A stretch of DNA of 64,000 nucleotides from Lingula anatina. Lineage: Eukaryota; Animalia; Brachiopoda. The DNA lies in contig CM120646.1 of NCBI GenBank assembly GCA_051362555.1, forward strand, positions 19,778,001-19,842,000, given 5' to 3'. Shown here one piece after another: positions 1 to 56,986 of this stretch. Each line of letters opens with the position of its first letter. Position 1 is the stretch's first letter. The notes beneath the pieces were generated by a model. That model was not told where the DNA came from. It saw nothing but the letters and a program-made list of their open reading frames with translations, and made no database searches. Position numbers and translations under genes: made by a program.

Positions 1-1964
1 TAAACCAGTTCTTTGTCCTCTTAAAACTGAGAGGTGAGAGTTAGCTAAAATAAGGGAGAGATAACTGTCAAAATATTCAAGGGAACAACATATCATCCAC
101 ATGTTTAGAGTTATGTCTAGGGACATTTAATAGGTTTACTTGCTTGGGATAACATATTGCATGTCCTGGGTTCCTGTCATGTCTAATATCAGATATACTA
201 ATCAAAAATTAAAAGTGTTGTCAAGGTTCAAAGTGGTGATATCTAAGACAGGAATGGGGGCAAAGACTAATCAGTGGAAAAATTTAGAAAAATATCTAAA
301 TCTAAATCTAAGACAGATCAAACACGCATTCTTAAAAAAAAAAAAACGTTATAAAAAATCACAAAAACTGTCATATTTGGCATGCGTGGAACATTTCTTA
401 ACAGACAGGTGCAAATGTAATGAAACACGATCCATAGAAGTCAAGAACACAATTCTTGAATCTCTTGGAAGTTTGATTACCGACTCAAAAACTGTTGGTT
501 TCCCTTCACCAGTTATATTAGTTCCAGTATACAGAGAAGAATAAATGTAAAAGCTTAAAAAGCATTGTGTCAGTTTTGTATAGAGGAACAATCACCTCAT
601 ATACTGACCAATTTTTTTCTGTAAATTTAAAAGGAATCAGATATATGTCATGTTGACAGGGCTCACTGCTGATATCTGAAGGGATGTTTAGACTGTGGAG
701 TTTTGATTCATATTTCCTGCTGGTGCTGGTGTTGGCGGTGGTGGTGGTGGTGGTGGTGGGGGGGGGGTGTCAAGTCAATTGTTATAAAATCATGCAAAAT
801 GGGAACACAGTAAAACACAGAAAAAAATTCTATACATTGAGGAAAAAACCTATTTAAACCATGCAGAAAGTGCTCAACTTTTTTTCAGACAAATTAATGC
901 AGTTTATCCAAACATTTTGCGATATTGCAAGTAGAAGAACTGTAAAATATTGCAATACAGATAAAGCATTTGCTTGAAGTTAAAAAAAAAAATAAAATAA
1001 AAAATAAAAAAAATCAAAAAAGCCTAGAACCCCTCATCTTGTTAGACAATAATTAACTAGACTGTAGCAAATATGAGGTATGATAATTTGTGTCAGAGGT
1101 AACTTTTTAGACAAAAGAAGCAATTTAGCTTTGACTGGAGTTGACAATATAAATATACACCAAGTATAAAGCTGTGTGTAAAATCTGGATTAGAAATGCA
1201 GTTGTCTTCAATTATTCTCTCTCATGGCCTACATTTGCAATTTCTAATTTCAGTATATAAACTGAACAAATTTTAGAGACTGTCTCTATTAATTATACTT
1301 ACAGAGATCATTTACTTCTAAGATATCCTTTCTCTAAATATCTTTGACTTCTTCCAACCTCCCCCCCCCCCAAACATATTTCTTTATCAGGTTTCCCAAT
1401 ACTTAAATCTATTCAAAAAAATCTATTCAAAATATTCTTGATAGCATTCAAAATTCAGATTTTACACTGAACCTGAACATTGCAGAGACTGCAGGTATGA
1501 AATATTAATTTGCAGAGTTTCAATTTATCATACCACTTTGGGTAACATATACATCCATATTGGTCACTTTACAAGCAGAGACATATTCAAGCTCTGATAA
1601 AAGTCATAGTAGTGTTCTTACTGGCTGCATAGATCAAACCATGAGCATATTTATAGAAGTTTTCGAGAAAAAAAAAATCTTAAACTTTTTATCTGGTGTT
1701 ATTAAAACTGCCTGGATTTTCCAAAATCACTTCCTATATTTGATCCATGCCAAATAAGGCAGCTGAGACCTAATAACTAACCCAAAAAGCAATACTTGTA
1801 TAGGCATAAATTGTTACATTGAGCACAGAAAGCCTAGAGATATACATCGTACAGTTTGGTAGACCCATATATCAATTGTCTATCACACTGGTAGCTGGAA
1901 TAATGCCATGCATTGGAAGCTTCTCCTGACAGTCATGTGTGCACAGATAAAGCCTGAATACACC

Positions 1965-2230
1965 TGGCATACTGCCTGGCATGTCATACTGCCTGGCATG
2001 TCACGACATGGGCATGGCATACTGCTTGGCATGTCACAACATGGACATGGCATGCTGCCTGGCATGTCATGACATGGGAATGGCATACTGCCTGGCATGC
2101 CAAGACATGGGCATGCCATATTTCCTGGCATGTCACCACATGAGCATGGCATACTGCCTGGCATGTTACGGCATGGGCATGGCATACTGTCTGGCATGTC
2201 ACCACATGGGCACACAGATTGACATGCCAT
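1965..2230. repeat. 33-bp minisatellite, about 7 copies (CATACTGCCTGGCATGTCACGACATGGGCATGG)
   Basis: Directly visible tandem unit; the overlapping ORFs show an 11-aa periodicity. Confidence 0.9.
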
Positions 2231-2289
2231 AACAGGAATATTTGGCATAACTCAGATCTATGCACAATGACAACACTATTCCGTCTTAC

Positions 2290-2364
2290 CGCATACACTC
2301 CACCTGGGCGGATGTAGTTGGCGTGCATTCGCGCACCAGAAACTCTCTCGTAGATCTCTAACAA
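2290..2364 (-). CDS. NDUFS2: NDUFS2 alternative exon 7b ([25 protein letters not shown])
   Basis: 75 nt, phase 0/0, acceptor GTTGTTTTTAG, donor GTAAGA; 19/25 aa identical to 7a, no stops. Confidence 0.9.
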
Positions 2365-5300
2365 CTAAAAACAACAGTTAAAAGATAAACGTGTTGTAAC
2401 TTTGATATTTGTTTTACTTGAGCGCACAGTGTGAAAGAGGCTCATGGTGATGATGTTGGCAATCAAGGTGTATATGCAAAATCATTTTGTAACTTCTCAT
2501 TAATTCCATGTTTTCCAATTTCAATGGCACTGTTTTGCCAATGCGCTTCCGAAAATCATATCATGTGGCAGTCTCTAAAAGTGATTTCGCTTCAAATATG
2601 TTCTTGAATCCAGCAGGATTATCCGATTAAGTCTTTTTCAAGTGAATTTATCTTTGAGGACAAACATTACACACCTTTTGCCAAAAACAACAAGCATGAG
2701 TCACTAGCTCAAGTCCCTTTCAACCATGTTGACTTCATCACACCTGTTTCATACCTGTGAGACACCACCTGGACGTACATAAGCTGCATGCATACGGGCA
2801 CCTGAAACCCGCTCATAAAACTCCATCAGCTGCAAGAGAGTAGACATCTATGTTTATCAGGCAAACAAGGTGAATTACGGTGAATTGTGTGTCAGCAATA
2901 TGGCTGCTGGTGGCTTTCACAAGTGTGTGTGTGTGTGTGTGTCTGTGTGTGTGTGTGTGCGTGCATATGTGTGTGAGTGATTTCATATGTGTAAAAGTAG
3001 ATGTGAGAATGTTGTATATAAATCATCATCTACATATGTTGTATATAAATCATCATCTACATACAATGTCATATGTTCTTTAAAACTATAAGTGCCCCAT
3101 AACATGAAGCAAACAAGTGTTAACATCAGATGCAACTATTAAGAAGTAATGGGTATGAAGCAGAATCCACCTTTGGAGTACCACTGTATGGTGCTGCAGT
3201 GTTCCTGCAACCTGAAATGATTACTCTGCATTTCTTTTTCTACATTCTTATCATAAACAGTCATTCAAGTCAATTAGTTTACTTCACAAAATAAATATTA
3301 AAATCAACTTTCAGATCTCTCTATAAAAAAAAAGTATAATAAGTTATTATTACAATAACTATAAAAAAATGCTGATAAATTTTACGAAATTACTTTTTTT
3401 CTGAATTCATTTCAGTAGGATTTTTATCTTGATATTCTTTACCTTTTCCCTTTCTTCAAACATCCAAAACAATGGTGTAAGTCCTCCGATATCCAAAATG
3501 TGGGTGGTTATTCCCATCAAGTGGTTCATTATTCTAGTTATTTCTGCAAACATTGCTGAAAAGGAAAAAGAATTACTTCTGCCCTTAAGATAACTGAAAT
3601 TAAAATATCTTGAGAGTAAAAAATAATATAAATTCTAAAAAAGCAAAACACACACCATTCAAAAAAAAAAAAAATTCAGGACCATATTTTTGTGAAGTTC
3701 CTTCCAACAATTGTGCTTAGAAAAATGGACACAAAATTGTCAAACTGATAATTTGTAAGAAGTATAAAGGCTTCTGTTAAATCTTTTTTTTTTTTTAATA
3801 GTTTTCCTGTTTCATTCCCAGAAAGCAAAGGGGCACAAAAACTCTTTTTTTAAATACATTCTCTTCTGTACTGTGACATTCTTTTCAGTAAAGTCCTACT
3901 CCACATAAAATTTGCCAACTCCATTTCTCCACTCATCCTCAAAGTACTTACTTCTAATATACTTTGCCCTGGGTGGGACATCTATATTCAGCAACTTCTC
4001 TACGGCTAAGGCATAAGCCTGCTCATTACACATCATAGATACGTAGTCTAGACGGTCGAAGTAGGGCAGGGCCTGAAAATAGTGCAGTTGATGACAAAAT
4101 TACACAAAACTACTGCTAAAGATTTGGCATTTTGCAGCATTTTATCTTATCACAGTCACCATATCATTGCAATAACTTCCAAGTTATAACATATTTACAG
4201 AATGCAATTTTCAAAACATTAGTTTTACAATATTACTAACTTGGACCCATTTGTCCCACACCTAAAAAAAATGCACTGCCATACCTTGCATATTCCACTG
4301 TCTGTGCCTGCCACATTCAACTAACACATTCTAATGTCACATCTAAAATAATACCCTTCCACATCAAACACGTTCTACTATTACATCTAGCACATTCAAC
4401 TGTACATCTAATTTAAATTCTACTGTTACACCCAACACATTCAACTATCACATTCTTATGTCACATCTAAAATAATGCACTTCCACACCTAACCTATTCT
4501 GTTACATCTAACACATTCAACCATCACATTCTTATGTCACTTCTAAACTAATGCACTTCCACACCTAACACATTCTTCTATTACATCTAACACATTCAAC
4601 TGTCAAAACACATTCCAATGTCACAACTAAATCTTCACTGCAAGCTTACTCACCTGGGTGTATGTTTTGTACTCTATCAGCTTCTCTGTCGCTCTATGAA
4701 GCAGACCTATGTGGGGATCGCAGCGTACTATGGACTGAATTTGCAATAACAAATCAATTTTATATTCTTGAAGTTGTAAGTTGAAATTGCCCATTTGTTT
4801 TTTAGAAAACCCGTGTCAGAATTCAAACATCTATCCCCTCACTTAAAGCAATAATAACTCTTCGTTTCGGCCAAAAAATGAATTTTCCTGGAGTAAACAA
4901 CAATTTTCCCATGCTTACCAATGGTTAATGAATCCATTTTTACATTCATAGTTAGTCCCTGGTTTTTTTCTAAAAAGTTTGGTTTTTTGTTAAAATCTCT
5001 TAAGAGATTTTAACAGAGTATAGACATCAATGGAGGTCACGTGGTCTAAAGACAAGTTCAAATATCAGAATAAAAGCTATAACTGCTGTTTTTGTGGTAA
5101 AACAGAATATATTATATTTCTATGAGTTATTCACAATGTTTTTATTGTGAAATATAGGTCTCATACAAAGAGTTATTATGACTTTAATTTGAATATGAAA
5201 TAAGCAGGTTTTCTCAACTTTTTTTTAATCCACCCTGATCCCGTAAATAAATTTAAAAAATACAGACATATTCATACATTTATATATAACAAAATACAAA

Positions 5301-6433
5301 AGAAAAAATTAATAAATTAAATGCCATTCATCTTGAAAATATTTACAAAAAGCAGTTTCCTGACAAAGTCTCTAAACACCCTAAGTTTCTAGGGTGACAT
5401 GTACCTCAGCATCCAGCATTATGATAAGCCTAAGCACACCATGAGCCGCAGGGTGCTGAGGCCCAAAGTTGAGCACCATATTCTGCAGATATCTGTCAGT
5501 CTGAGGCATTCTCTCTGAAAAGACAAAGAATAATAGATCTCCATTTTTTTCTCATGACATGATGAAGTTTGATCTATTTCTTCTTCTATGAGATACGCAT
5601 CGCAATTTGTTAGCTATGAATTCTTTGAATAAAAATGATATCATAGATACTCTTACTAATTGTAAGAATTATTTTCAAAATAATGATAATAATAATAATT
5701 AAAATAAAATATCAACAGGTAAAGCATTTCCTATTTAAACTTTTCATAACTCACTTGAAAGAAAAACATAAGAAAGAAAAAAATAGCAGCAGACTGTGCT
5801 TTTGTCAACCAAAATTCAGAGATAGAAATAATAGTATTTGGCAGAACAGATTTCAGTCAGCGATGATGAAGAATGCAATTCTTATTTTCAACTTATATTA
5901 TCATATTAGGACAATACAGCTTGTAAACCTAGAATGACCCTAAGAAAAACAAGTACTTACTGAACATGCTGTATTTACTGGTGTCTTGTATAACCTCAAT
6001 TTCGTCCACTGGAGTAGTTTCATAGTCTATATCTACTGCACTATAGTATATTGCTGGTTCGTCGTATCTTTTTAAAAATTCATTATCTGGTAGCCACATA
6101 GGACCTGCATATCTGACATAAAAAAGAATCACATCACCCTGTGTGATACAGTAACATCAAATCTGTATTGCAAAGTTTTAAAATAGTATATCTTCTCTGA
6201 AATAACTACTACTACTACTGACTATTCATGGAGTAAAAAGAACACCTTGATGTTACCTGCAAGTGACACTGTGACAGGCAAGCAAATAAACAATCAAGTA
6301 TTAAATCTGTAGCTCCATACCTTTTTGACAAAACAACTGGTTGAAAAGCGGTCTGAGCTGGGCTTTTTACGGCTGATAAACCGCGTGAAAGATGCCTTCC
6401 AGCTCCAAGAAGGCTCCTGGCGATAGCCGCCAT
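2290..6433 (-). CDS. NDUFS2: NADH:ubiquinone oxidoreductase 49-kDa subunit (NDUFS2), 5' part; gene continues beyond the left window edge
   Basis: GT-AG exons 6433-6321 (mitochondrial presequence-like [18 protein letters not shown]), 6112-5961, 5514-5405 ([15 protein letters not shown]), 4734-4654 ([22 protein letters not shown]), 4072-3952 ([18 protein letters not shown]), 3555-3443 (FWMFEEREK), then 2829-2755 or 2364-2290 ([10 protein letters not shown]). Phases are consistent. I found no further NDUFS2 exon in 1-2289. Confidence 0.97.
2755..2829 (-). CDS. NDUFS2: NDUFS2 alternative exon 7a ([25 protein letters not shown])
   Basis: 75 nt, phase 0/0, acceptor CTCTCTTGCAG, donor GTATGA; canonical RMHAAY type. 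Confidence 0.93.
4290..4630. repeat. degenerate tandem repeat (ACACATTCAACT/CACATCTAA units) in an NDUFS2 intron
   Basis: Recurrent cacatctaa / acacattcaac motifs. Confidence 0.7.
4847..5183. mobile_element. 337-bp non-autonomous TIR element, family A (TTAA TSD, Kolobok-like), copy 1
   Basis: TTAA on both flanks; slightly degenerate TIR related to AGGGATAATAACTCTTC; near-identical copies at 22907-23243 and 51000-51336. Confidence 0.88.
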
Positions 6434-6748
6434 TTTGGAAATGTAGCAAGCAAGATAATCCGCAAATCAGCCTCCTTTTCAATACAATCATTATGATATG
6501 AAAAGCACTCTTATAAACGAAATCGAGATCTAGCCTCTTGGAAGGAGGTCGAGGATGAAGGTCGTTTCGTAATATCAATTTGTGAATTATTTCAAATTGC
6601 TTTCGAATATTCATAATGTATGCTTTGAAATAAAGTTTCATGGAAAAATTCATATACATAACTGATATATATTAGATGTTGTTGAAAAAAATTAGACTAT
6701 TGAAATACATTGTTTTCGGACCTCCATTTTCCAAGACAGGACAACAAG
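6434..6748. promoter_or_regulatory. bidirectional promoter region, NDUFS2/RBM42
   Basis: Divergent ATGs 315 bp apart. Both start codons sit in YY1-like AA(A/G)ATGGCG motifs (AAAATGGCGGC; CAAGATGGCGTC). Confidence 0.75.
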
Positions 6749-22906: not shown

Positions 22907-23243
22907 AGGGATAATAACTCTTCGTTTTGGCCAAAAAATGAATTTTCCTGGAGTAAACAACAATTTTCCCATACTTACCAATGGTTAATGAATCCATTTT
23001 TACATTCAAAGTTAGTCCCTGGTTTTTTTCTAAAAAGTTTGGTTTTTTGTTAAAATCTCTTAAGAGATTATAACAGAGTACAGCCATCAATGGAAGTCAC
23101 GTGATCTGAAGACAAGCTCTGATATCAGAATAATAGCTATAACTGCTGTTTTTGTGGTACAACAGAATATATTATATTTCTATGAGTTGTTCACAATGTT
23201 TTTATTGTAAAATAAAGATATCATATGAAGAGTTATTATCCCA
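22907..23243. mobile_element. family A TIR element, copy 2
   Basis: TTAA flanks, 337 bp, TIR AGGGATAATAACTCTTC with one terminal mismatch. Confidence 0.9.
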
Positions 23244-24900: not shown

Positions 24901-27463
24901 TTAACTCTCTTTCTTGGTGCCATTAGAATCCATTTTTCCATTACTTGCACCCTTCTTCTCCAGTTTGAGGATGTCGTAGAGGGGTCCTTCATTTGACCAT
25001 GCGCTTGGCACACGGAACGATCCTCCAAGACGATCCCACAGTGTGAAAAACTGCCCATAGTTGTAATTATACAAAACATGATGATCCATATGATGTGCTG
25101 AACCGTTCACAAATGGCTTCATCTTCTCTGGGACACGGAAGTCACCATCGTGAATTGACACTGTCCATATATTTACAAAAACAAATAAAATCAGATACAA
25201 AACTTTATGCAGGGGGAACAGGAATGGGTAGATGTGGTACGGGCAGCTCTGTAGAAAGCCGTCTGCAGGGTGAAAGGCGTGGCTGGCGTAAGGTGTGGGG
25301 ACTTTCCAGCGATGATGATCTTTGTGAATATATTTGTAGACTAGACGGTGGTGAAGGAAGCGATGTATCCAGTAGATGCACATGTCTGTGAAGAGGATGA
25401 ATGTCACAACACTGCCTAGTAAGTAGAACCAACCTGGAGAGAAAATCATAGTTGTTCTCATTTTTATCATATTTCATATTTATTCATAGCACCCTCAACT
25501 TTAGTTCTGATGAATGCCAACTTCTTCAATTTAATTTCAAATCCCACACATGGCCCAAGGAGGAGAGAATGTCTACAAACCAGTCTGAATCCAGTCCATA
25601 AACTTTCCAGCCAAATCAGGAATGAGACTCCCATATAGTAAAAAAAAAAAAAAAAAAAGTAAAATATTTGGGTCCAGGGGCCTGGTTGGCCAATGATATT
25701 TTTGGCTCCCAAAAAGTTGAAAATCTGCGGATAGTTTGAAAAATTTCATCCCTGTTAATGTAAACTGAAACTGAGACGCATGTGGAGGGCAGTTTATAAG
25801 AACCAATTTTTTTTTTCATGCCAGCTTATGGTCTCATTTAGCAGGAGATTTGAAAATGAGAAAGCTGACACACATCAGATATCTGGAGCTCAGGGTAATT
25901 TGTTTGAAAATAATCTGGAACTATTCCAGAAATGAAGGATTCTGGTGATACTTGTTTACTACAAAACAAAGCAGATATGGAAAAATTCTATCTCAAAAAC
26001 ATTCAATAATGCAGACTTAAATTTTGCGAAAGCACTTTTTCTAAAATCTGAAGCCTACAAAATTACTGAAAGACAGAGTCTGAATAATATGACTTTTAAA
26101 AAAATAAGTTTATAAATTTTACTTTTAAACATAGAAATACTTTTAATAGAATTCCCATTTTGGAAAATGGTGGCGTTTTAAGCAAACAAAAAAATATAGA
26201 TTTCAATATCATAACTTCTGTTCTTAGGTTAAAGGAAATAAGGCTTAAATCTACCTAATTTCATGTCTTCCACATTGTCATATAACCTGGAATACCCTTG
26301 TAACTCCAGGAAAAAAATGGCACATGTTGGCAGACTCATGTAAGGGATGGAACCCAGCGCATACTTGATTTCTTTCCACACTTGATTCTGAAGAGAAAAA
26401 CACAACTTAGTTTATAACTCTAACATGCACTCTCAACACTTCTGCTTACTCAAACAATTGAGTAATTTAGCTCAAAAGCTGACTTATTTGAGTAAAATCC
26501 AACTTTTAAGCAACTGTTACAGTGTGCCTATTAAATATTAAACTTGGGACACATTTCTTATGACGACTAAACTGGTACCACATCAAACAAACACATTAAG
26601 CACAATCCAATGTCACATCTAACACAATGTGTTTGAGATCTCTACCCAACCTGATTGCACGTTAGACCCCCATTCCCACAGATATTTAGATCGATCTATC
26701 CCCCTGGGGAGTCTCACTAGATTGATGTCAGCTTAACCGGCTTAAATGTCCGTCCCACCTACTAAAAGCTGTAAGGGGGTAATTAACTTTAGTGCGCACT
26801 CAGCTCCCGGAAGCTGACAGCAATTTAGCGTGAACCCCCAGGGAGTTAGGGCAATCCAGTAGATTGATCTAAATCTGTGGGAACCCAGTCATAGAGATAA
26901 CTTAGTATTTATGTTGCCACTGGGGTATTGATATTGCCACTGAACATATCAATTGATTACTAGTAATCTGTGACTTTTTTCTCAAGTTGTAATTAAAATA
27001 AATAAAAAGATGAAAATTTTGAGAGATTATTTCCAATTCAGCTCTATATTGAAGATTTGCACAGACATGCTCCTGAGTTTCACCCTCCTAATCCACCGAT
27101 TACTAGTAATCACATTTGGAAATAAGGTCTACATGGCTCACTCTACAGGTAGTTAAGGGGATAACCACATTTGTCTTCAAAGCAAATTTAATCTCTTGAA
27201 ACTGCTAAAGTTTTAACTTTAATTAAAACCTCAGCAAATATTCCTCAAGTCCATACCTCCAATATTTGAGGATGTTTCAAAAGCCGGTGGTCATAAATAA
27301 AATAATAGCTCAGAGAGGCTGGGATGATGTAGACGAGGAGTCCTCCAGTGTTGACCACAAGAAGAAGACTTATTATCTGACGCAAGGGGTCATCTCTTGC
27401 CCACCCTGTGGGGTAGACACTGTCCAGTACAAAGTGGTCAGCCACATCAAGGACAAGATCCAT
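24901..27463 (-). CDS. SC5D: sterol C5-desaturase / lathosterol oxidase
   Basis: Exons 27463-27257 ([18 protein letters not shown]), 26387-26255 ([16 protein letters not shown]), 25433-24901 ([45 protein letters not shown]). Three His boxes present. Confidence 0.96.
26673..26883. mobile_element. MITE family C, copy 2 (SC5D intron)
   Basis: Homologous to 20097-20301; same TIRs. Confidence 0.85.
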
Positions 27464-27499
27464 ATTGCTTTATATCTGGAATAAAGAGAAAATAAAATG

Positions 27500-34000: not shown

Positions 34001-36391
34001 ACCGAGGAACAACTGCAGATTCCAGAGGACACAATTCTGGCCATAAGTAAGTACTGACATATTAGGTTTATTGAGTATCAGGGGCAGTTTATGTTGTAGA
34101 TATTACAGTGGCATATCATAATATCGAGCTGCTGATAAGAATAAATGTGGAAGATACAAAGGGTGTGGATATGAGATATGTGACATACTGTCTGTGATAT
34201 TGAATTTAAGGAGGAATTCCATCTTCTATGTTTCCCCAAATAATGTGTGTTAATGTGTTAAGATGCTTCAAATAAGTTTACACGTGTGTGTGTATGTGCT
34301 CATGCATATATGCACATACTCTTAAAGCAAAATGTCTGGTTCCCAGTTTCCAGGTACACGCGTGAGGCAGGTGTGCGGTCGCTGGAAAGGAAGCTCGCTG
34401 CCGTGTGCAGGGCCATAGCGGTCAGGGTGGCAGAGCACAGCAGTGCCAAGAAAGAACTCAAATCTGTTGCCATACACCCTGAAGCTGAAGGGAAAGTATT
34501 AGACCACAGCACTGTGCCAGGGCAGAGATCCAGTGTGCACCCTGAATCCCGAGGCCAGGTGGTTGATGTTGATGTCCCAGAGACACATAATGTTGGATAT
34601 CTGACCCACCCTCTGGAGATGCCAATTTTCATTGATAAAGCATTACTGGAGGAGATATTAGGGGTAAGGGTTTCTGTGGAAATATGAAAAAAAAAAACCT
34701 GGAGCATTGAAAAGTGGGCAAGAGGTGCAATGTACACTATATGATCTACTGTAAAATATTTGTAAATTATAAAAAAATATTATAAGTATTGGTAAATTAT
34801 ATAAATAGTTGTAAAATTTTGGTAAGATGTATGGTAAGACCTAATCATAGTTTTTTTTAGATGTGTTTAATGAAAAAAATACATTATTGATCTGTATGAA
34901 AATGAAGTTTTTTAAAGTTACATTTTATACCCCCCCCCCCAAAAAAAAAAAAAAATGCAAGAAATATTTTAAGTCTATATCCATATTTGAATATAACAGG
35001 CACCTCCCTTTGAGAGCGAGATGTCCCAGCGGCTGAGTCGCCCAGGGGTGGCAGTGGGGCTGGCGTGGACCCCCATGGGAGGGGAGATAATGTATGTGGA
35101 GGCCACTAGGATGGAGGGAGAGGGCAAACTGGTGCTGACTGGACAACTGGGGGGAGTCATGAAGGAGTCCGCTACCCTGGCGTTGAACTGGGTCAGGTCC
35201 AATGCACATCTGGTAAGGTTTGGTTAATGTATTGGTAAAAAAGGGGAGGGGGGAATTATTTTCCTCCTCCCTGTTTGTGAACTGCATCAGGTCTGCTAAA
35301 GTTTATCAGATTTTTATACCTCAAGTGTGGAGGGAATTGGAAAGTGACAAGCCCAGGAGTTATGATAGTCTTAACCTACAACATATTGTGGTTACAGTGC
35401 ATTTCACATTGATAATAAAACTAAAAAAAGATTCTTTGAGATTCTAGAATTGTTTTTGGTTGTACATGTAAGTCAGCAAATGAATAATAAAGATAAACTA
35501 AAAATACAAAATACACATATAATTTTTATTTCAGCTTGGCATTGAACAGGGCGGCAACCTGTTAGAGAACACAGATATCCACATCCACTTCCCGGCAGGT
35601 GCCGTGGGGAAAGATGGTCCCTCTGCAGGTGTCACCATCTCTTCTGTCCTAGTGTCCTTGTTCTGTGGTCGCTGTGTCAGGTCGGACACCGCCATGACAG
35701 GGGAGGTGACGCTCCGGGGATTAGTGCTTCCAGTGAGTGTCTAGTATCTATAGGGTAATATTTAAATGTTGGGTTTGTAGCCTGATATCTATCCACAGGA
35801 CAATATTGTTTTTCCTGCAAGCACTCCAAATTGTCACAAAGACTTCAGGACAGTAACTGTTGGTTTACCTGAGCAAGGACATTTAACTAAGAGAACCCAC
35901 AGGTGACAAGGTGTCATCACAGTGTTATTAATATGTTTTGTAACCAGAAACGGATGCAAATTGTACAGTCACTGTAAAGTATTTTTATCCTCTTCATTGT
36001 CAATTTACAGGTGGGAGGTATAAAAGAGAAAGTTTTGGCAGCCCACAGAGCGGGAATAACAAGAGTTTTGTTGCCAGAGAGGAACATGAAAGACTTGCAT
36101 GAAATTCCTGCCAACGTCAGGGTGAGTTTTATCATAAAATGTTTGATTAGGAAGTGAATTCTTCATAATGAAAAAGGAGAATGAGGAGGTTACAGATCAT
36201 GATGATAATATAGTCGACAGTTTTTTTTATGTATATAATAAAATGATGAAATTGAAAATCCTTTTTCTGGTCCATTTCAGAGCAAGTTGTCTATAATTTG
36301 GGTAAGCAAGATGGAGCAGGTTCTGAACGCTGCATTTGAGGAACCTTTTCCTGGTCTCAGCTCAGATGACATTGTCCCTAGTAAGCTTTGA
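28019..36391 (+). CDS. LONP2: peroxisomal Lon protease homolog 2
   Basis: 19 exons: 28019-28125, 28886-28973, 29249-29361, 29673-29758, 29949-30064, 30326-30478, 30827-30990, 31249-31347, 31646-31720, 32151-32336 (Walker A GPPGVGKT), 32755-32902 (LLDEIDK), 33181-33260, 33580-33692, 33927-34046, 34347-34663, 35000-35212, 35535-35732 (KDGPSAG, catalytic Ser), 36011-36121 (GGIKEK), 36281-36391 ending SKL* (PTS1). Confidence 0.97.
33261..33579 (+). other. U12-type (minor spliceosome) GT-AG intron in LONP2
   Basis: Donor GTATCCTTTC; branch-like TACCTTGAC at 33561-33569 just upstream of the AG; no polypyrimidine tract; splicing restores [13 protein letters not shown]. Confidence 0.88.
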
Positions 36392-50500: not shown

Positions 50501-50999
50501 GAGAAAATGATTCAAGAAATGGGAGTTTAAAACTGCAACCCTTTGATTGCAATTGTAAAATAAATAATAATAATTGTAAAATAATATTTTTGTAGTTACT
50601 GAGTACTCCCTGTACTGTTTGTATAAATGTACCAATGCATTTACCCTAAACATAGTATTATAGAGGCTCACCCTTACCACTAATAAACAAATTATCTGGA
50701 TTGCTTATGGGTACTCTCCATGCATTTTCAAATCTCTCACTAGCATATTTATGCTCTGTAAAGCTTCTCATAAGTTACATTTCACAATCCAGACCCTAAA
50801 GATGATAAAACCCTTGAAATAAAACTTTTTAGAAGCATATTTAGTGTTATTATTACTTTCTCCTCAGCCTCCTTGGGTTACCATTGCCAGCTTGAAGCAG
50901 CTGTATTATACATGGCATAGGGCTGCAATACAAAACACCCTATCATACATGTACAGGTAGATGCCTTTCTATTTGACTGGCCAGTCATTTAAAACTTAA

Positions 51000-51336
51000 A
51001 GGGATAATAACTCTTCCTTTCGGCCAAAAAATGAATTTTCCTGGAGTAAACAACAATTTTCCCATACTTACCAATGGTTAATGAATCCATTTTTACATTC
51101 AAAGTTAGTCCTTGGTTTTTTTCTAAAAAGTTTGGTTTTTTGTTAAAATCTCTTAAGAGATTTTAACAGAGTATAGCCATCAATGGAGGTCACGTGGTCT
51201 AAAGACAAGCTCAGATATCAGAATAATAGCTATCACTGCCGTTTTTGTGGTAAAACAGAATATATTATATTTCTATGAGTTATTCACAATGTTTTTATTG
51301 TGAAATATAGATCTCATACGAAGAGTTATTATCCCT
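51000..51336. mobile_element. family A TIR element, copy 3 (perfect TIRs)
   Basis: TTAA|AGGGATAATAACTCTTC ... GAAGAGTTATTATCCCT|TTAA. Confidence 0.92.
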
Positions 51337-54135: not shown

Positions 54136-56986
54136 TTATAAACATGTCCACGTCATGTCAGCCTTTTGTGAACAGTTGTCTTGGGCTGCGCGTGAGTACC
54201 CACACTGCTGAAGAGACACCGGAGTTGCACGAGGCAGAGCAAGCACTGTCTGATTCTGGAAGGTCGATGAAAAGACGTCCAAATTAGGCTGGGTCATATA
54301 GTTACGAGAAGCTTGTACATCGCAGTCTCCATACGTTCGTTGGTCCTGCACACAATTCGGCGAGACGTAACCGTTGGTAGTTTGGCGGTGGTTTTTACCA
54401 CAGTGAGACTGAGCAAAGTTTCCCTGAGAAGACGCAGTTGATAAATGCAGATTGTCCATTGCATTAGAGAAGACGCATTGCGGTTGCGGAGATTGGGTTA
54501 TATCTCCCAATAACTGCGTGTTGTTCGGGGAAGGGACTATTCCTGCCAGGGGACTTCTCCGCATGTTTTGAGTGTGGACTTCCATCGACCCGTAGAATCT
54601 GTGCGGTGAAGCGTGAGGGCTGTTTGCTGCGTTCGGGAAAACAGAATGCGGTGGCGGGGACAACATATTTGTGGAAGACACTTGTGGAGACGTCTGCGCG
54701 TTGCGGTGCGGAGATCTTTGGAACCTGCAGCTTGTCGCAACATCCTCGACTTTTATGTCAAGAGGCTGCTCGGGTATTTGGCACGTGAGTGGATGCCTCG
54801 CGCGATTAAGAGTCTCGGGGTCGACGGCAAACCGAGATGAGCTTTGAGCATATGCAGTTTTGAGATCTGGCAAAGCCTGAAGAGACGCTGACGCCGAAGA
54901 GCGAGGAGACGCCATTTGTCGACACTGTTCTTGAACTGCCTCATAATAACTCGGAGGGTCCCGTTCCGGAGCGCGGGCAGGCGACGCGGTCAAGGAAGAC
55001 GTCTGATTGGTCAGAGATTGTGGAGTTCCGGTTTTTGATTGGTCAGCGACTGGATTTCCTTCGTTCCCAAGGCAGCATGAATAAATGAATGAGATTGCTT
55101 CCGGATCTGCTTTCACTTTTGGTTTGAGGATAGTTTCAAAATTGAACTTGTAGGTATATCTTTTGCCGTGCACCTTGTTCATGATCAGCTTGTCGTAGTA
55201 GTACCTGGAATATGAAGGTCAATGCAATGTTAGTAAGACTTCACAAAGTGCACTTGTGACCAAATATCAACTTTAGTGTGGGAGACGCAGGTTTGTAGGA
55301 TGTAAATGTCCTTTAGATTCTTTAGCAAATTAAAATTTTCAGATGTTTCATTCGTTATTTTGAATTGGAAATGCGTATTGTCATCCAATTGTTTTCACGT
55401 AATACACGGCCAGTAGCCAGCTTTTCTGCTTATAGAAGAGCACAGAGTGGCTTTACACTGAGAATTATTCTTTGGCCTAATCAAAATTATACTGGGTATC
55501 GATCTACTGCCAACCTTCTCTAGAATTTTACCTGAGTGCTCGACTAAGCTTGTCATAGTTCATGTTGGGTTTCTTCTTCCTTAACCCCCACCGCCTTGCC
55601 ACCTCGTCCGGGTCGACCATTTTGAACTCTCCCTCGGAGCTGGTCCAAGCAATAAAGTGACGGTTCGAAGGATCTCCTAGCATCTCCAGTAAAAACTGCC
55701 ATAGCTGTATTTGACCCGTCGTTTCTCCCTTTCTTCCACTGGCCTGAATGTCTGGAGGTGACGTCACAGCTTTGGATTCGCACGGAATCTTTTCATCTGA
55801 AATTATAATAATTACCACAGTGCTTATTTTCCTTGACACCTCCATTTTTATACATTTGTAGGGTATGGTTTAAGAATGAAATAAGAAGGAGATACGTAAT
55901 TGACTGTGAAAATAAACAAGCATACGTTTATGCAGAATATGAAAACTGCGATACTTTTAGTAATATTGAAGGAAGATGAGGACACATGGTTAAACATTTA
56001 TAAGCTGCGTTATTATTAACGGAAAACAAATGCAACGTTTGCAAGTTGTGTGACGGAGATGTTTCATTGAGCCCATTCATTCTGTTACGACCTCTTCGAA
56101 TTTATAAATGTTAATGTTGGAGATTTAAATACAGCAAATTACTAATGATACGTAATTTAATTGATAAATGAATATTCATTAAAATAATTAGTTAGAATCA
56201 AAACTTGAGTCTACCTCGGTCTTTATTTTACGGAAATATCGCCACACTATTTCTATTTACCAAAAACAAACAGAATTTAAAAATAAAATAAGTGAATATA
56301 TTTTTGATAGTTTTAAAAAACTGAAACGGACTAGACGGCGTTCTCTCACCTTTACTTTCCTCCTGTAGTTTCTCTTGGATGATTTGATCAATGTCGTCGA
56401 TGTCGCTCAAGTCAGCCAGTGCGCAGTCTGTGGAGGGTCCCTGGGACAGGGGGCTGCCGACAGAAGATTCACCTGATAGATCGCATGAAGCCTGCGTTTC
56501 AAATATTCCTTCACGTGACGGACTGAAAATATAAGCATAAATGTATAATCTCGTATGTAAGCATTAGTGTATTTTCTTTAATGTTGAAAAAAGTTTAGGG
56601 TATGGAAACAAAAATATATATGGATACACAAAGAAATCAAAAATCAAGAAATGAAATATTAAATCTTTAAAAACACATTAAAGGAAGTATGCAAAAGAGA
56701 AAAAGAAAGAAAAGAAACGCAACTGAAAGTTTTAAATAAAGTTTTAAATAACTAACTTGATAGCCTGAAGTACTTTTTTACGGACGGGCGAAAATTATCA
56801 AATTATTTTTAAAAAAATAGATAACCTGCCAGCACCTTACCAGGTCTCTTCGCGGCGAGATGTGTCCGTGAGCTGGAGAAGAGTGTCAATGAAAAGATCG
56901 TGCTCGTCTGCTTGGGTCTCCATTGGAACTGCGCATGCGCTTGGCGAGAAGCCTCCTTTTATGAAGTACAGGTCGTAATCATACAT
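54136..56986 (-). CDS. ETS-domain transcription factor, ERG/FLI1/FEV-like, no PNT domain seen
   Basis: Exons 56986-56841, 56522-56350, 55796-55532 ([39 protein letters not shown]), 55204-54136 ([22 protein letters not shown] + S/P/Q-rich tail). Phases are consistent; an in-frame stop lies upstream of ATG 56986. Confidence 0.92.

What the first reader, a model, noticed from the sequence alone, without database searches (positions are those of the whole stretch)
2416..2714. Long-range RNA duplex closing the intron between NDUFS2 exons 7a and 7b
Seen: the two ends of the 390-nt intron are complementary in nested order: ACTTGAGC 2416-2423 / GCTCAAGT 2707-2714; AGTG 2428-2431 / CACT 2702-2705; CTCATG 2441-2446 / CATGAG 2695-2700; TTGGCAA 2456-2462 / TTGCCAA 2678-2684; AAGGTGTATA 2465-2474 / TACACACCTT 2668-2677. 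The single mismatch in the last helix is a G-U pair on the transcribed (minus) strand. The stem begins about 40 nt after the 7a donor and ends about 50 nt before the 7b acceptor. A second TTTTGCCAA near 2533-2541 offers a competing partner. Established: intronic pairings control mutually exclusive splicing in insect Dscam and 14-3-3. Inference: this is the cis element that enforces or regulates the 7a/7b choice. Some such mechanism is needed because both exons are frame-neutral, so NMD cannot remove double inclusion.
Basis: partly seen in the sequence, partly recalled or inferred. Interest (0 to 1): 0.8.

Follow-up and report, generated by a model that had tools for sequence, protein, structure and literature searches.

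The report
Intron stem between swappable complex-I exons
A lamp-shell (Lingula) gene for a core respiratory complex I subunit swaps between two either-or exons in different samples, and the intron between them is predicted to fold into a long RNA stem that likely helps tune, but probably does not alone enforce, that choice.

Summary
The five helices are at the stated coordinates. The gene is Lingula anatina NDUFS2; both isoforms are already in RefSeq. RNA reads show that 7a and 7b are exclusive and switch between samples: one run gives 86 vs 0 junctions for 7a vs 7b, another 12 vs 56, and no 7a-7b junction is listed. The stem is moderately above chance: end-to-end duplex p about 0.01-0.02, whole-intron fold z -1.7, gapped alignment p 0.10. 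In a roughly 6% diverged Lingula allele no listed change hits the arms and one adds a pair, but part of the 3' arm was not visible. It resembles the R3R4 helix of ATE1, but stops 51 nt short of the 7b acceptor and does not change that site's computed accessibility. Best reading: a real helper element working with splicing proteins, function unproven. The scan noted a similar intron-closing duplex in octopus CaMKII. The more striking fact is the exon switch next to iron-sulfur cluster N2.

The parts
3443..3555 (-). NDUFS2 exon 6 (constitutive in the two RNA runs laid)
   Evidence: junctions 3555/3952 and 2829 or 2364/3443; 100% identical to Lingula anatina P0002
2860..2875 (-). S_a: element 31-46 nt upstream of the 7a acceptor, 14/16 identical to the 3' core arm; weak candidate competitor for the 5' core arm
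   Evidence: repeat family D11; duplex -14.8 kcal/mol; similarity p about 0.09; weakened in X10
2755..2829 (-). exon 7a, 75 nt, [25 protein letters not shown] (Yarrowia NUCM 213-237, includes His226); holds an exonic UGCAUG at 2792
   Evidence: RefSeq isoform X1
2365..2754 (-). 390-nt intron between 7a and 7b
2668..2714 (-). 5' arm of the stem (helices 2714-2707, 2706-2702, 2700-2695, 2684-2678, 2677-2668), UG-rich
   Evidence: the only listed X10 change in 2659-2747 (2694) adds a pair
2476..2590 (-). inner extension: 9-bp helix 2590-2582:2484-2476 and weaker inner helices ending in the local hairpin 2540-2525; not conserved
   Evidence: X10 changes at 2484, 2488-2491, 2498-2499
2416..2474 (-). 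3' arm of the stem (2474-2465, 2462-2456, 2446-2441, 2431-2427, 2423-2416)
2290..2364 (-). exon 7b, 75 nt, [25 protein letters not shown]
   Evidence: RefSeq isoform X2
1978..2212 (.). 33-nt minisatellite (7.1 copies) just downstream of 7b, rich in GCAUG and YGCY on the transcript

Best explanation
Lingula NDUFS2 has two duplicated, mutually exclusive exons, 7a and 7b, whose use switches between samples, and the intron between them is predicted to fold into a long end-to-end stem that is likely kept by selection as a helper that tunes the choice rather than a lock that enforces it. Shown: exclusive use, the switch and the complementarity. Inferred: 7a is the default. The 5' arm, 41-87 nt after the 7a donor, is UG/U-rich and would act as an enhancer of 7a while single-stranded. 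Once the 3' arm is transcribed, about 200 nt later, the stem would hide this enhancer. In cells with an RBFOX/MBNL-type factor (exonic UGCAUG in 7a, GCAUG/YGCY cluster downstream of 7b) 7b is switched on and 7a off, and the stem lowers the chance that both are kept. The direction of the effect is the least certain step.
For: Exclusive, sample-dependent splicing: run X13 has 86 exon 6-7a junction reads, 0 to 7b, and 166 reads from 7a into exon 8; run X16 has 56 to 7b, 12 to 7a, and 62 vs 18 reads into exon 8. No 7a-7b junction is listed and no loose end points to skipping both. Duplex strength p about 0.01-0.02, absent from three neighbouring introns. The core 17-bp helix (-21.8) beats all 1424 background tiles, best -19.2 (core chosen after the fact). 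Random placement of the same changes did as well in 8-24 of 2000 trials and kept reference strength in 114-184 of 2000. The 5' arm has 6 UGU vs 1.3 expected; there are 5 GCAUG in 500 nt downstream of 7b vs 0.5 expected, 3 of them inside the minisatellite, so not independent (motif roles recalled, and UGCAUG near exclusive exons is noted in PMC4165533, passages).
Against: Single-sequence statistics are modest (z -1.7; alignment p 0.10). Sparing of the arms alone is not significant (hypergeometric 0.03-0.14, Fisher 0.16), and the gain rests on one change. No compensatory double change was seen. Only 40 of 117 difference rows were shown: 3 of 4 differences of the X10 contig over 2360-2476 and 6 of 8 of the X4 contig over 2240-2913 are unseen. 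Contig overlaps imply that X10's haplotypes differ near 2446, at a helix end. Unseen positions were treated as reference, which favours retention. Conservation of the 5' arm could reflect protein-binding motifs alone. Blocking the arms does not change the opening cost of the 7b acceptor. The UGCAUG in 7a comes from a CAT His codon shared by 19 of 24 other animal loci, so it is not specially evolved.
Confidence: 0.42

Rival explanations
1. The stem is incidental or neutral. Exclusion and switching are done by splicing proteins alone, and the complementarity arises from a UG-rich stretch meeting a CA-rich stretch.
For: p only 0.01-0.1 across tests, falling to z -2.2 when the composition of each end is kept; no effect on computed splice-site accessibility; protein-only control of exclusive exons is documented in C. 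elegans egl-15, let-2 and unc-32 (PMC4165533, passages).
Against: The arms are spared and extended in X10 while the loop diverges by about 9%; the three other introns show no such signal.
Confidence: 0.35
2. ATE1-type competing switch: the 5' core arm D (2668-2684) pairs either with S_a upstream of 7a, silencing 7a, or with the 3' arm upstream of 7b, silencing 7b.
For: Same layout as ATE1 R1/R3/R4 (PMC7797038, results and discussion read); S_a matches the 3' arm at 14/16; in a transcript ending at 2660 the S_a:D pairing has p about 0.78; S_a abuts the best 7a branch-point motif at -28.
Against: S_a:D is only -14.8, at about the 1% level of background tiles, against -43.7 for the closed stem; similarity p about 0.09; X10's change at 2868 weakens it without compensation and D then pairs elsewhere; freeing D does not close the 7a acceptor (9.6 to 7.4 kcal/mol); the 3' arm does not overlap the 7b pyrimidine tract as R4 does.
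Confidence: 0.12
3. Structure-assisted steric block: the stem collapses the intron so that the 7a donor and the 7b branch point are too close to be used together.
For: The stem removes 299 of 390 nt; a weak extension 2724-2717:2384-2377 (p 0.33-0.36) reaches the -14 branch candidate. The title of Yue et al. 2013 on Dscam exon 17 names steric hindrance combined with RNA structure (seen only in reference lists; paper not held).
Against: With the outer helix closed, 59-78 nt remain, above the roughly 50-nt threshold quoted in PMC7969005 (passages) and the roughly 40-nt minimal intron of C. elegans. The outer helix is closed in only about 60% of sampled structures. A stem of this kind could instead help removal of the intron.
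Confidence: 0.08
4. The stem is a relic of a MITE or other inverted-repeat element.
For: Interrupted inverted symmetry over 300 nt.
Against: Single-contig, flat depth over 2492-2754 in both DNA runs at 85% likeness, unlike 3563-3940; best second hit in the 64-kb window is 24 nt at E 0.02; no duplicated target site flanks 2416/2714; the arms are better conserved than the interior.
Confidence: 0.03

Closest known systems
Human ATE1 exons 7a/7b, helix R3R4 (Kalinina et al. 2021, PMC7797038; results and discussion read)
   Same: Two duplicated exclusive exons; a helix with both arms inside the intervening intron; an element upstream of the first exon that resembles the 3' arm.
   Different: ATE1's R1 and R4 overlap the 3' splice sites, are conserved across vertebrates and are proven by compensatory mutation. 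Here the arm ends 51 nt before the acceptor, the R1-like element is weak and not preserved in X10, and nothing is tested.
Dscam exon 6 and 14-3-3zeta/Mhc/MRP1 docking-selector pairing (PMC6071210, passages)
   Same: Long-range intronic pairing near exclusive exons.
   Different: Their docking site lies upstream or downstream of the cluster and exons are looped out; this stem encloses no exon.
Steric exclusion: OGDH 4a/4b distant branch points (PMC7969005, passages); Dscam exon 17 (Yue et al. 2013, title only)
   Same: Frame-neutral exclusive exon pair; for OGDH also a mitochondrial enzyme.
   Different: No AG-free zone (AGs at -78, -54, -37), so no distant branch point; the effective distance stays at 59-78 nt.
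coq-2 exons 6a/6e, the ubiquinone/rhodoquinone switch (Tan et al. 2020, PMC7434440, passages); nematode nduf2-1/nduf2-2 paralogues (PMC6859908, passages; PMC11265314, abstract)
   Same: Alternative versions of a respiratory-chain component in invertebrates; NDUFS2 versions that depend on stage or cell type.
   Different: Nematodes use gene duplication. Here one exon at the N2 loop is swapped, and no link to quinone type or oxygen is shown.

Membership tests
Mutually exclusive exon pair | Homologous tandem exons, each spliced to the same flanks | tested here: met
   19/25 aa identical; both join exon 6 and exon 8
Mutually exclusive exon pair | No double inclusion or double skipping | tested here: met
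   No such junction listed (threshold 3 reads) against 18 and 166 reads from 7a into exon 8; 2 of 9 RNA runs, about 6% of each read
Dscam/14-3-3 docking-selector | Docking site outside the cluster; pairing loops out exons | tested here: not met
   Both arms lie in one intron. In a scan of 1-6500 the two cores were each other's best partner (-21.8); shorter 3'-arm pieces scored higher with tiles at 5411-5450 and 6251-6290, upstream of exon 4, at background-extreme level. The rest of intron 7b and exon 8 are off the window.
Dscam/14-3-3 docking-selector | Two or more selectors of similar strength competing for one site | tested here: not met
   2533-2541 folds locally; S_a -14.8 vs -21.8
ATE1-type R1/R3/R4 | Helix within the intervening intron | tested here: met
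   Predicted only
ATE1-type R1/R3/R4 | Similar elements upstream of both exons, complementary to the central element | tested here: inconclusive
   14/16 match, p about 0.09, weakened in X10
ATE1-type R1/R3/R4 | Pairing hides the 3' splice sites | tested here: not met
   Opening energies unchanged or in the wrong direction (equilibrium model)
ATE1-type R1/R3/R4 | Cross-species conservation or covariation | tested here: inconclusive
   One partly visible diverged allele; no second exon 7 in 24 of 24 other animal loci, several of them short
ATE1-type R1/R3/R4 | Disruption and compensation change splicing | not testable with these tools
   Needs a minigene or antisense oligonucleotides
Steric exclusion | Donor-to-branch distance under about 50 nt | tested here: not met
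   59-78 nt with the stem closed; branch point only predicted
MITE | Many genomic copies, terminal repeats and a target-site duplication | tested here: not met
   the whole genome was not available

The most novel reading that the evidence does not exclude
Lingula switches the N2-neighbouring loop of complex I by regulated splicing. An RNA stem steers the swap of the exon that carries the N2 hydrogen-bonding histidine (HAAY to HANY), giving two complex I forms for different oxygen states or quinones (ubiquinone vs rhodoquinone): a splicing counterpart in complex I of the coq-2 switch.
Probability: 0.13. Interest if true: 0.82.

Novelty: new member of a known kind. Interest (0 to 1): 0.48.

Why it matters
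RNA pairing near exclusive exons is a known kind of control, so the stem alone would add a brachiopod case of an intron-internal helix, a layout whose action is poorly explained when it does not cover a splice site. The host event matters more: a core catalytic subunit of complex I with two sample-dependent versions of the segment holding the histidine that tunes the potential of cluster N2 (H226; PMC8042128, passage). Both isoforms are annotated in RefSeq, but I found no paper describing this switch (searches; listings only for 46 and 47). Six residues differ, so the isoforms can be tested directly in a Yarrowia complex I system.

Tried and rejected
The whole genome was not held, so no genome-wide copy search was possible. 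Cross-species covariation failed for lack of data: 24 metagenome loci with the 75-nt exon held no second exon 7; among 350 fetched proteins only a Toxocara fused duplicate had two exon-7 motifs; no look-alike stretch was found among earlier scan windows. No RNA holder was listed in the index, so raw-read runs of the same species were laid instead. Only 2 of 9 RNA and 2 of 12 DNA or unlabelled runs were laid, which leaves exons 1-4 and further tissues unread. A pairing of S_a with the 7a donor (-18.2) was rejected because two X10 changes weaken it (-15.3). Nested pairings of the 3' arm with 1546-1903 downstream of 7b (I4, I17, I19) are within the range of background tiles. A local hairpin 2748-2738:2699-2689 is lost in X10. 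A distant branch point at -99 was rejected because AGs follow it. No ADAR-type change was seen, but intron depth was at most 5, which is uninformative. Rfam gave no match over the intron. The Asn of 7b is not a rhodoquinone marker: it occurs in many bacterial proteins and in tardigrade and nematode proteins of a search biased towards 7b. Yue et al. 2013 and 2017 were not held. No supplements were read.

Full report
Identity and anatomy. The minus strand of 2290-6434 encodes the N-terminal half of NDUFS2; exon 8 lies beyond the window start. Exon 6 is 100% identical to Lingula anatina NDUFS2 isoform X1, a brachiopod. The cluster holds two RefSeq proteins, X1 with 7a and X2 with 7b. The exons are 75 nt each, 49/75 nt and 19/25 aa identical. 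Exon 7a aligns to Yarrowia NUCM 213-237 and so contains His226, which hydrogen-bonds cluster N2 and tunes its potential with little effect on activity (PMC8042128, passage). In Yarrowia numbering, 7b differs from 7a by M214L, F216I, A228N, V230I, S236Y and Q237A.

Observation. All five complementary pairs, their nesting, the G-U pair and the distances (40 and 51 nt) are correct. The predicted fold continues inwards with a 9-bp helix. The two core helices have pair probabilities of 0.92-0.97, the outer ones 0.47-0.65. The excess over chance is moderate. MFE z is -1.71 (6 of 100). The end-to-end duplex gives z -2.8 (4 of 500), with 4 of 274 GC-matched tiles as good, and z -2.2 (4 of 200) when each end keeps its own composition; three other introns of the gene show nothing. 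A gapped alignment score is not significant (501 of 5000).

Splicing. I laid two of nine RNA runs, about 6% of each. X13: 86 reads join exon 6 to 7a, none to 7b, and 166 run from 7a into exon 8. X16: 56 join exon 6 to 7b, 12 to 7a; 62 run from 7b and 18 from 7a into exon 8. The loose-end consensus translates to the start of exon 8 as in P0002. No 7a-7b junction is listed (threshold 3 reads) and no loose end points to skipping both. The pair is therefore exclusive and switches from 0% to about 80% 7b between samples of unknown tissue or condition.

Conservation. No orthologous intron was found: 24 of 24 other animal loci have one exon 7 in the stretch held. The only comparison is within Lingula. 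Run X10 differs by about 6.6% in intron 6 (19 in 289 nt) and 16 in 181 nt inside the loop, but by 1 in 89 nt at 2659-2747; that change (2694) turns a C-C mismatch into a G-C pair and lengthens a helix from 6 to 8 bp. Random placement of the same 18 changes matched X10's duplex energy in 8-24 of 2000 trials and kept reference strength in 114-184 of 2000. The hypergeometric chance of missing the arms is 0.03-0.14. Caveats: only 40 of 117 difference rows were shown; three differences of the contig over 2360-2476 and six of the X4 contig are unseen; contig overlaps imply a heterozygous site near 2446; unseen sites were treated as reference. The inner helices are broken at 2484, 2488, 2498 and 2499. 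The evidence suggests selection on the outer stem or on its sequence, but no compensatory pair was seen.

Not a mobile element. Depth is single-contig across 2492-2754 in both DNA runs, there is no second copy in the window, no target duplication and no Rfam match. The genome was not available.

Mechanism. Dscam- and 14-3-3-type pairing loops exons out from a docking site outside the cluster (PMC6071210, passages); this stem encloses no exon. ATE1 is closer, with R3R4 inside the intervening intron and R1 upstream of 7a (PMC7797038). An R1-like element exists at 2860-2875 and pairs with the core in a transcript cut at 2660 (p 0.78). But it is weak (-14.8), of borderline similarity (93 of 1000 shuffles) and weakened in X10. 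In ATE1 the helices hide the 3' splice sites; here blocking either arm leaves the opening cost of the 7b acceptor at 9.0-9.3 kcal/mol, and freeing the 5' arm does not close the 7a acceptor. Steric collapse leaves 59-78 nt, above the roughly 50-nt threshold quoted in PMC7969005. What remains is a helper role. The 5' arm is UG-rich (6 UGU vs 1.3 expected), 7a has an exonic UGCAUG that 7b lacks, and GCAUG/YGCY motifs cluster downstream of 7b, largely in a minisatellite. I infer that proteins make the switch and the stem hides a 7a enhancer; the motif roles are recalled and the direction is untested. An incidental stem is nearly as likely.

Novelty. Structure near exclusive exons is a known kind, and the scan noted a stronger intron-closing duplex in octopus CaMKII (unchecked). 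I found no paper on NDUFS2 exclusive exons: one search gave 0 papers; one search listed 13 whose titles and abstract starts concern vertebrate data sets; one search listed one annelid genome paper, whose passages concern COQ2. Nematodes vary NDUFS2 by gene duplication (PMC6859908; PMC11265314, abstract). A link to rhodoquinone is speculative: the Asn of 7b is common in many lineages, and neither oxygen state nor quinone is known for the samples.

Verdict. Observation confirmed; interpretation partly supported; new member of a known kind; interest 0.48, carried mostly by the confirmed exon switch beside N2.

Noticed in passing
P0001, P0105, P0106, P0107; L023:1194-1295: Another, unnamed animal has two tandem copies of NDUFS2 exon 6 (quinone-pocket segment) about 40 nt apart, read through by a gene caller; L023 carries the second type upstream of exon 7. 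Likely an independent exclusive-exon pair, with an intron short enough for steric exclusion.
   Followed up: partly
window 3443-3555: Lingula exon 6 ([13 protein letters not shown]) departs from the usual animal HALDxGAMTPFFW and resembles flatworm NDUFS2 (P0033 HILDIGGITPIFW, P0019 HILDCGALTPLFW), possibly a convergent quinone-site change.
   Followed up: partly
window 1978-2212: 33-nt minisatellite, 7.1 copies, starting about 80 nt downstream of the 7b donor, full of GGCATG/CATGCC palindromic units; opens a Cys/Met/Pro-rich stop-free frame on the minus strand (1886-2251).
   Followed up: partly
window 2429-2680: Run X16 shows a few intron reads on both strands inside the stem's loop (depth up to about 3); run X13 shows none. 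Too few to interpret.
   Followed up: no
window 3009-3063: Perfect 27-nt tandem duplication in intron 6, with one copy absent in run X10.
   Followed up: no
window 27248-27469, 35523-35741, 54139-55869: Other genes in the window, named from recalled motifs only: a sterol desaturase-like exon, a Lon protease C-terminal exon and an ETS-domain factor.
   Followed up: no
window 4811-5147, 23064-23207, 50961-51162: A dispersed repeat with near-identical open frames recurs in the NDUFS2 intron and twice elsewhere in the window; unrelated to the stem.
   Followed up: no
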